Part shown: in pieces, positions 43,001 to 49,000 of the stretch
Layout: each line of letters opens with the position of its first letter
How positions within the stretch are numbered: the first letter of the stretch is position 1
Source of the DNA: Trypanosoma brucei
Taxonomy: Eukaryota
DNA: 64,000 nucleotides
Reading direction: 5' to 3'
NCBI GenBank assembly: GCA_000002445.1
Contig: CP000071.1
Location: 2,048,001 to 2,112,000 of the forward strand
Program-made: the position numbers

Positions 43001-46000
43001 TCACCCCGCAAGGAACAATTCGCAACCCCCTTGTCGATGCGAACGCCACCATGCATTTGTTTCACGCATCATTCAAGTCATTCCTCATTTCCCGTCCAGT
43101 AGAAAGAAAGGGAGAGAGTGCGGTCCAGCTGTGCACACCCCATTATCCCTTCCCCTCCTCTTCCTTTTACAGCCTTTCTCCCGTGTAAGTTTGGTGCATT
43201 TGGAGAATATGCTCCGTCGGTTGCACACTCGTATCTTAGGAATGGGTTCCGTTTGTGGCATGCCCCCTTCGCCCATGGCTGAGGTTTTCCTCAAGTCCCT
43301 TCCACCTCCAGCGCAAGTGGATTTAGTCAAATACCATCGGTTTGAACAGGAGGAGGCGAACCGCATGCGCGTCCCGCGATGCACAACGTCCCCCGAGCCG
43401 TTTTATGACATTCAAAGCGGCGCGGCCGGGCACAAACATGTGGTGCTCATCACGCGTGAAGGGAACTTGATTACGTTTGGGGAGAACAGATACGGCCAGT
43501 CAGCTGCGCCTGGAGAAAGTGTGAGAGGCGGAGGAAGGTTAGGTGAGAACCGTCAACAACCCTTAGCGAAACATTCTGATCAACACGTAAGCGCAGCACC
43601 AATGTATGTGGATTTGGACGGTGCCTTCGCGGGAGGGAACAAAAGTGTTGCTTGTGGATCCAACTACACCATTGTGTACCAACCGGGTGGCCGTCGCGCT
43701 ATTGGTTTTGGCAACAATCACATGGGACAGCTGGGCATAGGACATAAAAAACAAGTTGATGCATCAAGAGGCTTCGCAGAGTGGGACCCCACTGCTGCCT
43801 GGTGGGGCGGGAATACGAACGTTATCCGTACGATTACATGCGGCTTCAATCACACGATACTGCAACTTTCTTCGGGGGAGCTTCTTTCGTTTGGCAGCAA
43901 CACGTGGGGTGAGTTGGGGATTGGCTCCACCGTGTCCCCTATGCAACCCACACCAATCCGTTTCTTCGAAGAGAAGGGCATTGTAGTGGTTAAGACCGTG
44001 GCAGGAAATAGTTTTACACTCTTCCTTACAGCCGATGGTCGGGTTTACGGTTGTGGAGCAACAAATGCTGGGCAATTGCCAGCAAACGTGTTTGAGCCGG
44101 CGCCGGTGCTTCTCACCCGCAGTTTTCAACAGGGCTGCAAAGTTGTACCCGGTAGGGTTCACGGAGGGCCCACTCAACCGAAGCTCATACGCATCAAGGA
44201 CATCGCTTGCGTGGGTTCCATGGCGGTTTACGCAAGCCGTAAAAATGAGCTGTTCGTGCAGGGAGCTCTGCCAGACTACGGGTATCAAGTACCTTCACCA
44301 CGCTTTCAACTAGTTGACCAGCAGCCGGCAATTGATTATCTAACAGAAATGATGGAGCACAACAAAAAGAAAGGTGGAACCAGATGGATGGATGACAAGG
44401 GAAGCGAGGCTCACACTGGTTTCGACATTGTACGGCTCGTGCAAGGACCGAGCACGCTGCTGGTCATTTATAAAAATGGCTGCGTTGCGGGTCTCGGTGC
44501 GAACGCGGAGGGACAGCTGCAGAACATTCGTAGGTCCCAAAAAGGGAAGGAGGTGAACCTCGCTAAAGCATTTACCGCCAACGGCTTGCTACCCGTCTGT
44601 TTCCCCTCAAAACCGTATGAAGCGGGAGGAAAACAAACGGCTGCGCTGCCGTGGTTCACGTGCGGGGCAGGTTTCACACTTTTGTTTGACAACAACGAGG
44701 TTTACGATGATGGAGGACAGGTTAAGCCGATAGAACTACCACCACCAGCGCCCACGTCGCGTCGTGGGGCCGCCGCTGCTCTGCGGAGCATGCGTTAGTG
44801 ACGTATAACATCGTGCATTAGGAAGTGCCTCCGTGGCTTGGGGGAAAAAGAAAAATGGCGCTGACGACTGGATACCATTGCAGCACCTGAACTTTACATG
44901 TCACCTCGGCTTAGAGGAGAGGTTGTCATGCTTTTCTTGCATTTCGCAGTGGACTGCTATGTTCTTCTGGTTTTGCACGTACCGTATGGACAATCCATGC
45001 GCGAATTCGACCCGGCGTTGCGTTGGCTTGAGGGGAAACGGTAACGAGGCACACTGCTTGGCAGCACATGCACCAAGAAAGAAAAAAGGCACCGGACCGT
45101 AACGATGACATGTAGAGTTGACTTAAGTTAAGTGATATACACTTTATCCCACCGCACCGCCTATTGGTGAGGAAAAGGTTTCATGAGCAACTGCCACTCC
45201 AACCCCAGTGAGGCATGGCGTCAACTCCTCCGGCTCCAAGAGGGGGTGTAAAATAAGGGATGGCGATTCGGTTGAATGTTGAGGCAACGCTCTCTCTTTT
45301 AAGGAAACACACACACGCTGAAGGAAATGGCCGTGGCATCCGGTAACTTAAAATCACCGGCCACTAGCGCCGGTTCCCCAAACTTGAATAAGCTACTGGC
45401 CTCTTGGCTGCTGTGCGCCAATGCGAAAAGACGAGTTAGCGGGGGAAACACATCAATCGGCGTTACCTTTACACGTGTAATTGTTAGTAGTTGAACATCT
45501 GGAAAGGAGGAGAAATCCATGGACCAAGTTGGGCATCAAGCGCGCACATGGTGCAGCTTGCGATGGCAGCCCTTTAACGATGAAACTGCGCGTTAACTTA
45601 CCTGGAAGCCGACGGTGAATTGACGGAGTTTCAGTTGTGTTTGGGCGGAGCCTCGGCCAGCTGTGTTTTTTTTTTTTTTCTTCGCTTCCACACTTCCCGC
45701 ATCTGTACACTCCAGTGGTGTTAGTCCATCTCACCTCTCCTCTTGGAGTTGCGGAACCAACGTCTCTGTTGCAGCCGCGAGTTTCTGTCACCACAGCTTC
45801 CGGTGCGTCCCCCATTTTCTCTTCTCCTTTGCCGTTGGGAAGGGCCACATTTATTGTGCTCACGGAAGCATTGAAACGAGGCAATATGCCCCGTACATCG
45901 GCACCCTTGCGCACGAGCCACAAACGGAACCCCCGCTTTCTCACATGTTTGTCAACTTTGACGGTTGGTTGACCCGCCGCCTGGAAGTGTACCGAAGTCA

Positions 46001-49000
46001 GCGACGGCCACCCGCAATCGTCTGAAGTTTTAATCGCCCTCGTGGCACCGGGTCCTTTCAATTGATCAGTTGACGGTTCCGAAGTGGACCGGAACGTTAT
46101 GGATGAAGTCGCAAGGGGAACGCTTCACAACAGCGAGGGCTGCCGCCTTATTCAACTGACGAATAATGTTAAACTGCATCGCGAAGGAAGTACACAACAG
46201 TGGGCAACAGCACCTCTCTCACCGTAACGGGTTTAGAAGTTTCCGGAGGTTTCAAACGACTGGCCACGAGACGGAAGAGTGTGGTAACAGCTTGTGCGGA
46301 AGAAAAATAAAAAGAAGATGCAAAAAAAATCTCAAATTGAGTGGGAAGAAAAAACAGTGCGGATATTTTTCTGCCCGGCAGTACCAACGCCGATTCCCTC
46401 TACATATGCGAACTAACTAAATGTATGAAATCCGGCAGGCAACTTTCGGTCGTTTCAATTTTCCCTTCCTCAGTCAGAATGCGGGTGGGAAGTAGTTACT
46501 GTTGAAGGAATGGGCTCAAGGTGGCGACAACCAACAACAGCTCCAACACAAACTTCAGGCCCCGCCACATTCGAGGGGTACAGACCAACAGCCCTACGAG
46601 TAAACCGTTTGTCGTGCCCCCGCTAAGGTTCCCCACCACTTCTAGCGGATGAACAAAAAAAAAGACGAAAGTGTCGCGCCACACCTCACTGCAATCTTCA
46701 GTGCCCCGTGGCTGTCTCTTGGGGTGCAATAAATGCTCTGCTATTTTCTGCCCATCACTTCCCACGAACGTGCATCCCCTGTCCAAGCCACTATCCTTCC
46801 ATGCTTCACTTCGGTCCCTCTGTTCCATCATATATAAATATATATGTGTGTGTGTGTGTGTGCCTTTGCCGTTTCATCGTCGTTCCATCGGCCATGCGCA
46901 TCACCTCGGTCGTGTTTGGCCAATAGATTTCCAAAAAAGAAAAAATCACTGCGGTGCGCAACTAATTTGTGTTCCTGCTCAAATGCGCCACTACACAAAC
47001 GACGTACCTCTTCAGCGACTCGTTGGGTGGCACTCTACCCATCGTTTGGTAACCGAAGATCAAACAAAATAAAAAGGTATCAGCATAGAAACAACTACTC
47101 TACCTCACACAACGTACCCGCCATACGAGCGTACGGTGGAAAGCAGGATAGGCAATCTTTTACCCTCACTCTGGTCTTTCAGAAGCATAAAACACAACCC
47201 CGGAACAAGATTAGACGTTCTTAACCGAAAGCAAACTTACACCTTCCAACATCATAACAAAGTTAAACAAGGTGAATCACACCGACCGTATAAGATAATG
47301 ATTAAATTGCAAGAAACGTCAGTGAAAGAATCTGTGTGCGCGTACTGCACCTTCATTACTAAGAACAAGGCAGATGGAGGGATTGAAATGCTTTCTTTCA
47401 ATTTTATCGCCACCGTTATTTTCATTATTTTGAAAGTGCAGATGGCGTGCGTAGTAGAATGTGTTAGGTTGTATCGTTTGAGCTAAGTCAACGTCCGTGA
47501 TAGGGACACACTCATTCAAAATAACCAGTCCTGACGTTCTGCTTTTTCTGTTACAGGATAAAGAGGGTGCACTCTCATTGCACAAAATCCAAAATCATCC
47601 ACCCTTCGGATAGCTTCCATCATCACAAAATATCCCTCAAGCATTTTCCACCCTTCCTATCAAGACTAAAATATTGCGGAAGTGAATTTAATCGCTTTCA
47701 ATTCTAGTTTGATTTAGTGAAGTGCTCCAAGCGTTCCAGTTAACAGCATCACAATATTTGTACCAAAAGCAAATGCTCCCATTATGTGTGCTTGAATATT
47801 TCCTCCCTACAATCATATATTATTGTGTCCCCCTACCCCCAGCACCGGATTGATTATTATTTCCGGTATCTTTTCCGTATTATTTTTGCTACCCCTATTT
47901 TTCCCATCCCCGGTTTTTCCATCCCTTTTTACATCCTTTTCTTTTACCATTATTGGTCAGCTTGATCCCATTGGAATAAATACGTGTGTTACAAATCATA
48001 CTCAGCCCCTCCTAACACCCCCTGTTGGAAATAATTCTTCGAGGTCGCCTTCCAACTTCTCAATGGCACTCTTCAGCCCTCTTCCCTCTACATTGTCCTC
48101 ACTTAAATCACCCATTAACGTCGCAATTTCCCGCAATTCACCCAACCAAGGTATGTCCTCAACCATCCCAGCCCTGGTGTTTATAATGTAATGCACACCC
48201 GGGCCAGGTACGTACCCCGACAGGAACTCGAGCGGCCAAAAGAGTTGCTTTTTGTGTTTTCCCAAAACGTACATAGTCCCGCTGCAACCATCGACACGGT
48301 GGTTCAGGCTGCGACGAAATTTTTCCACCAGCTTAGCAAACCCTTCTTTGTGCCCCTCCACATTTGAACATTGTGACACAAGGAAATTCCACCTCTTCTG
48401 GGCATCATTTCTTGGTCTCCACACTCTACGATTTTCACCAGAAACGCAATTTTCACAGCAAAGTTTGGTTTTCCTTCTTGACTTTCTGTCTGTTGCGCAC
48501 AGACACAGTAAATCCCTGCTCAGTGACACGGGCCCCTGATTCACTTCGGGTTGTGAAACATCTCCCTCACATACACGCTTTCTGGTTGCACTTCTTTCCC
48601 TCATTTTTTTCGGTTGATGTGGTATACCATAAAGGGCGCGATTCAGCATTTGCTTTATTATATCCCCGTTCAACACCCAGTGTCTCTTCGTCATATTCCC
48701 ATATATCGTTTCGGCAGCGGATGCTACTTGCTTTACCTTCTCCAGTTTCTCATCATCCAAACTTTCTTTGCCTGCATTTCCCTCGCTCATCGACAGTTTT
48801 GCTGCATCCCAAAACACCTTGGAGTATTCACAGCTTTCGTCATTGTTGTCAATACAGGTATTGCTTAATTTCACGTCTCCAGCCAACTCAAGACATCTTG
48901 ATCCAATCTTCGTCAATGACTTGTTGACTTCCTGGGCTTCTTCTACCCTTTGCAATGCACCTTTCGCGAAATTAATCATACCACATAGGGCTCCAAATTC

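What the first reader, a model, noticed from the sequence alone, without database searches (positions are those of the whole stretch)
44799..47100. Convergent strand-switch separates a housekeeping polycistron from a surface/secreted-gene array
Transcription of the 44-kb plus-strand unit and of the minus-strand TS/secreted-gene unit must both terminate in this approximately 2.3-kb ORF-free interval. In trypanosomatids such convergent sites are marked by base J/H3.V and frequently harbour Pol III genes. Here the site coincides with the boundary between core genes and a fast-evolving multigene compartment. That fits a core/disruptive compartment border.
Basis: inference. Interest (0 to 1): 0.5.

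Follow-up and report, generated by a model that had tools for sequence, protein, structure and literature searches.

The report
Known trypanosome convergent transcription stop zone
This is an ordinary, already catalogued site on Trypanosoma brucei chromosome 8 where two gene clusters run into each other tail-to-tail, created because a small block of surface-protein genes sits backwards inside an otherwise conserved gene cluster.

Summary
The window is T. brucei brucei TREU927 chromosome 8. Its predicted proteins match Tb927.8.7290-7350 products exactly. The plus-strand cluster ends with the RCC1-like gene Tb927.8.7290, whose stop codon ends at 44798. The first minus-strand gene is the VSG-related gene Tb927.8.7300 (48002-49087). 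The gene-free convergent gap is therefore 44799-48001, 3.2 kb rather than 2.3 kb.

The gap holds no tRNA, no Rfam match even at E<=5, and no credible coding gene. The only unusual open frame (223 codons) is frameshifted in T. b. gambiense. Cumulative G-C skew turns over at about 45.7-46.5 kb.

Published stranded RNA-seq already treats this site as a convergent strand-switch region. It reports antisense read-through into flanking genes only when base J and H3.V are both removed.

Comparative synteny shows the switch is derived. Leishmania, T. conorhini, T. theileri and Leptomonas continue on the same strand after RCC1. In T. brucei those genes are replaced by a backward VSG-related/trans-sialidase island, and the conserved cluster resumes beyond it. 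The island varies between strains.

The Pol III expectation fails. "Core/disruptive compartment border" overstates a roughly 20-kb island. Already known; low interest.

The parts
43209..44798 (+). RCC1-like gene Tb927.8.7290, the last gene of the plus-strand polycistron
   Evidence: Pfam RCC1/RCC1_2. Exact match to XP_847558 of T. b. brucei TREU927. Called RanGEF Tb927.8.7290 in PMC2443814.
44799..48001 (.). Gene-free convergent strand-switch interval (3,203 bp)
   Evidence: No tRNA. No Rfam match at gathering score or at E<=5. ORF lengths at chance level. No significant repeats.
45700..46500 (.). Compositional switch zone, the inferred centre of termination
   Evidence: Cumulative G-C peaks at 45.7 kb, plateaus to about 46.5 kb and then falls. 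Keto skew peaks at 45.9 kb. The link to termination is inference.
45666..45689 (+). T14-rich polypyrimidine tract with an AG at 45714, a candidate last processing signal for rightward transcripts (second tract at 45808-45830)
   Evidence: Tract scan. The role in RCC1 mRNA 3'-end formation is inferred from the known coupling of trans-splicing and polyadenylation in trypanosomes.
46298..46318 (-). Polypyrimidine tract on the minus strand with an AG at 46292, a candidate processing signal for leftward transcripts (another at 46655-46671)
   Evidence: Tract scan. The role is inferred.
45456..46124 (-). 223-codon stop-free frame, judged non-coding
   Evidence: p about 0.03. 5-nt insertion at 45572 in T. 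b. gambiense. No Pfam match. The only database hit is a chance match to a repetitive C2H2 zinc-finger protein.
47030..47195 (+). Left copy of a 166-bp direct repeat bounding the strain-variable block
   Evidence: 91% identical to 54664-54826. T. b. gambiense has a single hybrid copy.
54664..54826 (+). Right copy of the 166-bp direct repeat
47184..54264 (-). Two tandem 3.9-kb units, each with a VSG-related gene and a hypothetical surface-type gene. The block is absent from T. b. gambiense and T. evansi.
   Evidence: Self-BLAST gives 98.9% identity over 3,188 bp. Absence in gambiense and in T. evansi STIB805 (PMC4288722). One VSG-related copy in T. equiperdum.
48002..49087 (-). VSG-related gene Tb927.8.7300, the last gene of the minus-strand unit
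   Evidence: Pfam VSG_B, E=2e-68. Exact match to XP_847559.
50103..50768 (-). Tb927.8.7310, hypothetical protein with a signal-like N-terminus and a hydrophobic C-terminal tail
   Evidence: Exact match named Tb927.8.7310. Sequence.
51897..52982 (-). VSG-related gene Tb927.8.7320 (second copy)
   Evidence: Exact match to XP_847561.
53996..54697 (-). Tb927.8.7330-type hypothetical gene, a paralogue of 7310 (the ATG lies 6 codons inside the listed TTG start)
   Evidence: PMC4288722 names Tb927.8.7310/7330 as the two hypothetical genes of the repeat.
58984..61230 (-). Trans-sialidase/sialidase gene (Tb927.8.7340, 'SA C')
   Evidence: Pfam BNR_3 and TS_C. Exact match to XP_847563. Name from PMC3121479.
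61703..63949 (-). Second tandem trans-sialidase copy (presumably Tb927.8.7350), the most upstream minus-strand gene visible in the window
   Evidence: 97.9% tandem duplicate. Exact match to XP_847564.

Best explanation
The interval 44799-48001 is a genuine RNA polymerase II convergent strand-switch region (transcription termination zone) of T. brucei chromosome 8. It lies between Tb927.8.7290 (RCC1-like, + strand) and Tb927.8.7300 (VSG-related, - strand).

It contains no gene of any kind, and no Pol III gene acts as a roadblock. Termination is most likely chromatin-based: H3.V/H4.V nucleosomes and base J slow and release Pol II somewhere around 45.7-46.5 kb. The last mRNAs on each side are cut and polyadenylated upstream of the final polypyrimidine tracts, near 45.67 kb for rightward transcription and near 46.3-46.7 kb for leftward transcription.

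The switch is not ancestral. A short lineage-specific unit lies in reverse orientation inside a cluster that is co-directional in other trypanosomatids. This unit comprises two VSG-related genes, two hypothetical surface-type genes and at least two trans-sialidase genes, about 18-20 kb in all. It creates this convergent site and a divergent site on its far side.

Shown: gene layout, absence of genes and RNAs, skew flip, derived synteny, strain variability, and published read-through data. Inferred: the exact termination position, the processing sites, and the presence of the chromatin marks at this particular site.
For: Identity and layout:
- Proteins match TREU927 products exactly.

No genes in the gap:
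- ARAGORN finds 0 tRNAs. Rfam finds 0 matches in the whole window at gathering score and 0 at E<=5 in 44600-48200.
- ORFs are at chance level. The 223-codon frame is broken in gambiense and has no homologues.

Strand asymmetry:
- Cumulative G-C peaks at 45.7 kb and keto skew at 45.9 kb.
- The opposing polypyrimidine tracts flank that zone.

Not an assembly artefact:
- T. b. gambiense and T. equiperdum show the same convergent arrangement.

Published experiment (PMC4721952):
- Tb927.8.7270 antisense RNA rises from 0.17 to 0.755 RPKM in the J/H3.V double null (Q=0.042). The gene lies 6,165 bp from a cSSR edge.
- Tb927.8.7300 is listed among genes within 5 kb of a cSSR. Its antisense log2RPKM is -9.97 in wild type, J-null and H3.V-null cells, and -4.56 in the double null.
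- The window holds only one convergent switch, so this must be that cSSR.

Derived origin:
- L. donovani and T. conorhini continue RCC1 -> 138/146-aa gene -> MORN-kinesin -> 3'-5' exonuclease on the same strand.
- Locus tags show the same order in T. theileri, Leptomonas seymouri and L. martiniquensis.
- In T. b. gambiense the gene beyond the trans-sialidase is on the RCC1 strand. It is the orthologue of the T. cruzi 1063-aa gene that follows that block (40% identity over 888 aa).
Against: - No ChIP or nascent-RNA data could be examined here, so H3.V, H4.V or base J at this exact site is not shown. Only 7 of 10 convergent sites on chromosome 10 carried J in PMC2896530.
- The published antisense effects at this site are very small in absolute terms.
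- They come from a Lister 427-derived line mapped to the 927 reference. That line may lack the VSG-related block (PMC4288722), and unique mapping is hampered because the two copies are about 99% identical.
- The 6,165-bp distance does not fit exactly with either the ORF start of Tb927.8.7270 or the ORF-defined edge. Its derivation (possibly gene models that include UTRs) is unresolved.
- The processing sites are predicted from sequence only.
Confidence: 0.88

Rival explanations
1. Termination here depends on a Pol III-transcribed gene (tRNA, snRNA, 5S) or another small RNA gene sitting in the gap, as at some Leishmania and T. brucei unit boundaries.
For: Only general precedent from established knowledge of trypanosomatid unit boundaries. 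Nothing in this sequence supports it.
Against: ARAGORN finds no tRNA in the 64 kb. Rfam finds nothing at gathering thresholds in the window and nothing at E<=5 in 44600-48200. A folding scan shows no strongly structured segment in the central zone.
Confidence: 0.02
2. The gap is not empty. The 223-codon frame at 45456-46124 (- strand), or another short ORF, is an unannotated gene or a decayed pseudogene. The true end of the minus-strand unit would then lie further left.
For: The stop-free run is longer than in 97% of simulations with local composition. It is the longest open frame in non-genic DNA of the window.
Against: Its first ATG leaves only 120 codons. A 5-nt insertion disrupts the frame in T. 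b. gambiense. It has no Pfam match. The only hit among 1.84 billion proteins is a chance alignment to a five-fold repeated C2H2 zinc-finger unit. TREU927 gene numbering leaves no gene between 7290 and 7300.
Confidence: 0.03
3. The two units overlap substantially rather than stopping, making this a dual-strand-transcribed, siRNA-producing convergent locus whose main output is small RNA.
For: T. brucei convergent units generally yield DCL2-dependent siRNAs, and all 49 surveyed did so (PMC3447711). Polypyrimidine tracts for leftward transcripts occur as far left as 44.84 kb. This would allow leftward transcripts to cross the whole gap.
Against: The chromosome 8 convergent site at 2,090,232-2,097,712 in PMC4721609 S2 Table has only about 11 small-RNA reads per million. 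Strong siRNA loci have thousands, and this site shows no change in the H3.V knockout. I assigned that site to this locus by the order and spacing of flanking gene numbers. No inverted repeat of note lies in the gap.
Confidence: 0.07

Closest known systems
T. brucei convergent strand-switch regions / Pol II transcription termination sites marked by H3.V, H4.V and base J (Siegel 2009, from my own knowledge; PMC2896530; PMC4721952; PMC4721609)
   Same: Tail-to-tail meeting of two polycistronic units, a gene-free gap of a few kb, and a strand-composition flip. Flanking genes of this very site appear in the published cSSR gene lists with antisense read-through in the J/H3.V double null.
   Different: Nothing substantive; it is one of the roughly 50-72 such sites. 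It has no Pol III gene and apparently little small RNA (by inference).
Chromosome-internal VSG/ESAG/VR 'islands' on the opposing strand in T. brucei (Jackson et al. 2010, PMC2854126)
   Same: Non-telomeric VSG-related genes lie on the strand opposite to their neighbours. Structure differs between subspecies: the block is absent in gambiense and T. evansi and reduced in T. equiperdum.
   Different: This island also carries tandem trans-sialidase genes and two hypothetical surface-type genes. Here it can be shown to occupy the place of a conserved gene block: a 138-aa gene, a MORN-kinesin, a 3'-5' exonuclease, a nodulin-like gene and a 129-aa gene.
T. cruzi core/disruptive genome compartments (Berna et al. 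2018, from my own knowledge; PMC10627812)
   Same: A boundary between syntenic housekeeping genes and non-syntenic surface-gene families, including trans-sialidase-family genes.
   Different: The organism differs. In African trypanosomes the disruptive compartment is assigned to the subtelomeres. This island is only about 20 kb and the syntenic cluster resumes after it. The T. brucei genes are insect-stage sialidase-type enzymes and VSG-related genes, not the T. cruzi TS/MASP/mucin arrays.
Leishmania major chromosome 3 convergent region, where Pol II stops at a tRNA gene (Martinez-Calvillo et al. 2004, from my own knowledge)
   Same: A convergent termination region between two polycistrons.
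   Different: There is no tRNA or any other recognisable RNA gene here.

Membership tests
Trypanosomatid convergent strand-switch region (Pol II termination zone) | Two co-directional gene clusters meet tail-to-tail | tested here: met
   The + strand genes end at 44798 and the - strand genes begin at 48002. T. b. gambiense and T. equiperdum show the same arrangement.
Trypanosomatid convergent strand-switch region (Pol II termination zone) | No protein-coding gene between the two last genes | tested here: met
   ORFs are at chance level. The 223-codon frame is frameshifted in gambiense and has no homologues.
Trypanosomatid convergent strand-switch region (Pol II termination zone) | Strand-composition asymmetry reverses in the gap | tested here: met
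   Cumulative G-C reaches its maximum at 45.7 kb and keto skew at 45.9 kb.
Trypanosomatid convergent strand-switch region (Pol II termination zone) | Enrichment of H3.V, H4.V and base J | not testable with these tools
   No ChIP data are accessible. The literature states the marks coincide at cSSRs in general, but J was present at only 7 of 10 on chromosome 10.
Trypanosomatid convergent strand-switch region (Pol II termination zone) | Antisense read-through into the opposing unit when the marks are removed | tested here: met
   Look-up of published tables. Tb927.8.7270 antisense rises 4.4-fold in the J/H3.V double null (Q=0.042). Tb927.8.7300 antisense is detectable only in the double null. 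Absolute levels are very low.
Convergent region with a Pol III gene as terminator | A tRNA, snRNA, 5S or 7SL gene inside the gap | tested here: not met
   ARAGORN finds 0. Rfam finds 0 at gathering score and 0 at E<=5.
T. cruzi-type core/disruptive compartment border | Loss of synteny with other trypanosomatids at the border | tested here: met
   Leishmania, T. conorhini and others continue with different genes on the same strand. No relic of those genes is found in the window.
T. cruzi-type core/disruptive compartment border | Large non-syntenic compartment of TS/MASP/mucin families (tens of kb to whole chromosomes). In African trypanosomes it is subtelomeric. | tested here: not met
   The island holds 6 genes in about 18-20 kb, and only one annotated trans-sialidase in gambiense. 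The syntenic + strand cluster resumes about 4 kb beyond it. The definition comes from PMC10627812.
T. brucei chromosome-internal VSG/VR island on the opposing strand | Non-telomeric VSG-like or VR genes on the strand opposite to neighbouring loci | tested here: met
   VSG_B domain genes lie on the - strand between + strand core genes. The class is described in PMC2854126.
T. brucei chromosome-internal VSG/VR island on the opposing strand | Structural dynamism between subspecies or strains | tested here: met
   The 7.6-kb block is absent in gambiense and bounded by 166-bp direct repeats. It is absent in T. evansi. T. equiperdum has one VR plus a divergent partner gene.
siRNA-producing convergent transcription unit | Dense two-strand 21-27-nt small RNAs from overlapping transcription | tested here: inconclusive
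   The probable matching entry (chromosome 8, 2,090,232-2,097,712) has about 11 RPM, which is low. The assignment to this locus rests on gene order only.

The most novel reading that the evidence does not exclude
The intergenic spot just downstream of the RCC1-like gene may be a reused evolutionary breakpoint. Lineage-specific surface or glycosylation gene islands appear to have inserted there in antisense orientation independently in T. brucei (VSG-related genes plus trans-sialidases) and in T. cruzi (two identical minus-strand galactosyltransferase genes in strain TCC). If so, functional Pol II termination zones with their H3.V/J chromatin can arise de novo wherever two units are made to collide, without a dedicated terminator sequence. 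This young, strain-variable site would then be a natural test case for how termination marks are established.
Probability: 0.2. Interest if true: 0.4.

Novelty: already known. Interest (0 to 1): 0.14.

Why it matters
It matters little beyond correct annotation. The site belongs to a well-studied class in the best-studied trypanosome genome, and its flanking genes already appear in published lists of convergent-site genes.

The one modestly useful point is evolutionary. Other trypanosomatids keep a co-directional gene run here, and the right-hand side varies between T. brucei strains. The site is therefore a dated, derived example of a termination zone. It could be used to ask whether termination chromatin follows transcription collision or DNA sequence.

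Tried and rejected
- **Pol III or small RNA genes.** ARAGORN and Rfam (gathering score and E<=5) were all negative.
- **Hidden coding gene.** The 223-codon frame was rejected because of the frameshift in gambiense, the lack of a Pfam match and the lack of any real homologue.
- **Conserved non-coding core.** A 553-bp run identical to gambiense (45732-46285) looked interesting, but the chance of such a run is about 0.09. T. equiperdum has two substitutions inside it, so I dropped the idea.
- **Relics of the ancestral downstream genes.** tBLASTn with the 138-aa gene, MORN-kinesin, exonuclease and other queries found nothing in the window.
- **G-quadruplex motifs, repeats and palindromes in the gap.** None of note.
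- **Structured-RNA scan.** It gave only a marginal hairpin at 47353-47447 in the VR 3' region.
- **TREU927 chromosome coordinates.** The look-ups failed. The link to the small-RNA table of PMC4721609 therefore rests on gene order.
- **Literature gaps.** Siegel et al. 2009 is not held. The PJW/PP1 paper's supplements have no entry for these genes. No coordinate list was found in the PMC4721952 supplements.
- **MORN-kinesin homology search.** It is uninformative about loss in T. brucei, because it also missed the Leishmania orthologues.

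
Full report
**Source and gene content**

The window comes from Trypanosoma brucei brucei TREU927 chromosome 8. Six predicted proteins from the window are exact matches to TREU927 entries on a 2,481,190-bp record:
- the RCC1-like protein at 43209-44798 (+);
- two 361-aa 'VSG-related' proteins at 48002-49087 and 51897-52982 (-);
- the 221-aa hypothetical protein named Tb927.8.7310 at 50103-50768 (-);
- two 748-aa trans-sialidases at 58984-61230 and 61703-63949 (-).

The literature fixes the numbering:
- Tb927.8.7290 is the 'RanGEF'/RCC1 gene (PMC2443814).
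- Tb927.8.7300/7320 are the VSG-related genes and Tb927.8.7310/7330 the hypothetical genes of a tandem repeat (PMC4288722).
- Tb927.8.7340 is a sialidase, 'SA C' (PMC3121479).

The plus-strand genes are mostly housekeeping. They include two protein kinases, squalene synthase, three galactosyltransferase-family genes, an inositol-monophosphatase-like gene, VPS11, Maf1, a DUF7759 repeat protein, ERGIC/ERV, p24 and RCC1.

**The observation**

All real genes up to 44798 are on the + strand, and all from 48002 onward are on the - strand. The right one (47100) is not a feature edge, because the gene-free gap extends to 48001 and measures 3,203 bp.

ARAGORN finds no tRNA in the whole window. Rfam finds nothing at gathering scores in the whole window and nothing at E<=5 in 44600-48200.

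With ATG starts the longest ORF in the gap is 126 codons, and 23% of simulated sequences do as well. A 223-codon stop-free frame (45456-46124, - strand) is the one mild oddity, with p about 0.03 under local composition. Four results argue against it being a gene:
- a 5-nt insertion at 45572 disrupts it in T. b. gambiense;
- it has no Pfam match;
- its single hit among 1.84 billion proteins is a chance alignment to a five-fold repeated zinc-finger unit;
- its first ATG leaves only 120 codons.

The gap is therefore empty of recognisable genes.

**Anatomy of the gap**

Cumulative G-C rises through the plus-strand unit, peaks at 45.7 kb, stays flat to about 46.5 kb and then falls steadily through the minus-strand unit. 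Keto skew peaks at 45.9 kb.

Polypyrimidine tracts are the signals that drive coupled trans-splicing and polyadenylation in trypanosomes (established knowledge). On the + strand they lie at 45666-45689 (a T14 run with the next AG at 45714) and at 45808-45830. On the - strand they lie at 46655-46671 and 46298-46318, with weaker ones further left.

From this I infer three things:
- RCC1 mRNA ends left of about 45.67 kb.
- The VSG-related mRNA ends right of about 46.3-46.7 kb.
- Polymerases are released in or near the 45.7-46.5 kb zone.

These positions are inference only. The gap has no meaningful direct or inverted repeats, tandem repeats or G-quadruplex motifs. A folding scan found only a marginal 105-nt hairpin at 47353-47447, in the 3' region of the VSG-related gene.

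**Published functional evidence**

Schulz et al. 2016 (PMC4721952) define convergent strand-switch regions exactly as the space between the last + gene and the last - gene.

Their S6 Table lists Tb927.8.7270 among genes with antisense transcripts increased more than 4-fold in cells lacking both base J and H3.V. The values are 0.17 to 0.755 RPKM with Q=0.042, and the gene lies 6,165 bp from a cSSR edge.

Their S2 Data lists Tb927.8.7300 among genes within 5 kb of a cSSR. Its antisense signal is undetectable in wild-type, J-null and H3.V-null cells and appears only in the double null. Its sense signal is unchanged.

The window contains only one convergent switch, so that cSSR must be this one.

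Caveats:
- The absolute antisense levels are tiny.
- The cells are Lister 427 derivatives mapped to the 927 reference.
- The duplicated VSG-related genes hinder unique mapping.
- The mark profiles themselves could not be inspected.
- Base J is not present at every convergent site (7 of 10 on chromosome 10; PMC2896530).
- J loss alone does not cause read-through at T. brucei cSSRs (PMC4721609).

In PMC4721609 S2 Table the chromosome 8 cSSR at 2,090,232-2,097,712 has only about 11 small-RNA reads per million and does not change in the H3.V knockout. I assigned this entry to the present locus because the order and spacing of chromosome 8 cSSRs parallel the flanking gene numbers. That assignment is an inference.

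**Origin of the switch**

L. donovani (two assemblies) and T. conorhini continue on the same strand after RCC1. The run is a 138/146-aa gene, a MORN-kinesin of about 1,050-1,085 aa, a 3'-5' exonuclease, and in T. conorhini a nodulin-like transporter.

Locus tags place RCC1 and the exonuclease three genes apart on the same contig in T. theileri, Leptomonas seymouri and L. martiniquensis.

In a T. cruzi assembly the same run continues with a 129-aa gene and a 1,063-aa gene.

In T. b. gambiense the layout differs. The gene beyond the trans-sialidase lies on the RCC1 strand, head-to-head with the trans-sialidase across about 4.1 kb. It is the orthologue of that 1,063-aa gene (40% identity over 888 aa).

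T. brucei therefore has RCC1 -> | <- VR <- hyp <- VR <- hyp <- TS <- TS | -> 1,007-aa gene, where other lineages have one co-directional run. The backward island makes this convergent site and a divergent site on its other side.

No trace of the replaced genes remains in the window. The exonuclease search recovered orthologues down to 36% identity in Leishmania but none from T. brucei, T. congolense or T. vivax. This suggests loss in African trypanosomes. The kinesin search is uninformative on this point.

**Strain variation**

Compared with T. b. gambiense DAL972, the window carries an extra 7.6 kb (47195-54664). It consists of two 3.9-kb units that are 98.9% identical, each with one VSG-related and one hypothetical gene. 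A 166-bp direct repeat bounds the block, and gambiense has a single hybrid copy of it. This is the signature of unequal recombination.

The same four genes are reported absent from T. evansi STIB805 (PMC4288722). T. equiperdum has one VSG-related gene and a divergent partner gene. In gambiense the convergent gap is therefore about 6.6 kb and the first minus-strand gene is the trans-sialidase.

Jackson et al. [quoted passage not shown] They call them among the most dynamic features of T. brucei core chromosomes, and they list the chromosome 8 trans-sialidase as a 2-copy tandem (PMC2854126).

Correct:
- a trypanosomatid;
- a convergent strand switch;
- a housekeeping unit facing a surface/secreted-gene unit;
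- relevance of base J and H3.V.

Not borne out:
- any Pol III gene;
- the 47100 boundary.

Overstated: 'core/disruptive compartment border'. The core/disruptive scheme was defined for T. cruzi, and in African trypanosomes the disruptive compartment is placed in the subtelomeres (PMC10627812). What is here is a small non-syntenic island inside the core, after which the syntenic cluster resumes.

**Verdict**

This is a real but ordinary and already documented feature. The only mildly new points are the explicit reconstruction that the switch is derived and the hint that the same intergenic spot was hit independently in T. cruzi. There, strain TCC has two identical minus-strand galactosyltransferase genes right after RCC1. 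Interest is low.

Noticed in passing
window 47195-54664, with repeats at 47030-47195 and 54664-54826: A 7.6-kb block of two VSG-related/hypothetical gene pairs is bounded by 166-bp direct repeats. It is missing from T. b. gambiense, which keeps one hybrid repeat. This points to gain or loss by unequal recombination right next to the termination zone.
   Followed up: yes
L003/L004 12610-20402; L006 12014-18968; L007 413-10174 (no counterpart in the window): The genes that follow RCC1 in Leishmania, T. conorhini, T. cruzi and T. theileri are missing at this locus in T. brucei. They are a 138-aa membrane-like gene, a MORN-kinesin, an EXD2-like 3'-5' exonuclease and a nodulin-like transporter. The exonuclease search returned no African-trypanosome orthologue, which suggests loss in that lineage.
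   Followed up: partly
L002 13335-14468 and 20815-21533 (T. cruzi TCC): In T. cruzi TCC the RCC1 orthologue is also followed by a convergent switch. Two identical minus-strand galactosyltransferase-family genes lie there, about 7.5 kb apart. This may be an independent opposite-strand insertion at the same intergenic site.
   Followed up: partly
window 47353-47447 (and the second copy near 51250-51345): An imperfect hairpin of about 105 nt lies in the 3' region of the VSG-related gene. The folding z-score is about -2.8 to -3.2 on both strands, which is marginal given the number of windows scanned.
   Followed up: partly
window 2000-4650: A very AT-rich (GC 0.29-0.31), low-complexity, ORF-free stretch lies between a protein kinase gene and the next genes. 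It has long T/C and A/G runs, a (TTG)21 array at 3949-4010 and a C-run near 4300-4325 that gives the only G-quadruplex-type motif in the window.
   Followed up: no
window 36392-37186: A 33-copy, 24-nt in-frame repeat lies inside the DUF7759 'kinetoplast-associated' gene (Tb927.8.7260). Alignment to T. b. gambiense is disturbed here, and T. evansi is reported to carry a frameshifting deletion in this gene (PMC4288722).
   Followed up: no
L001 13682-14044 (window 46850-47194 joined to 54691-54840): The T. b. gambiense annotation calls a 120-aa gene across the deletion junction inside the convergent gap. It has no domain, and its window counterpart is split by the 7.6-kb block. It is probably one of the spurious small CDS that Jackson et al. 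2010 describe.
   Followed up: partly
window 50103-50768 and 53996-54697: The two hypothetical proteins of the island share a hydrophobic N-terminus, a Ser/Thr/Lys/Glu-rich C-terminal half and a hydrophobic C-terminal tail (signal peptide and GPI-signal-like). Their N-terminal halves have diverged strongly, while their C-terminal halves are nearly identical.
   Followed up: no
window 54826-58984: A 4.2-kb stretch lies between the island's last hypothetical gene and the trans-sialidase. It has no annotated gene and no Pfam match for its ORFs. In T. b. gambiense it forms part of the convergent gap.
   Followed up: partly
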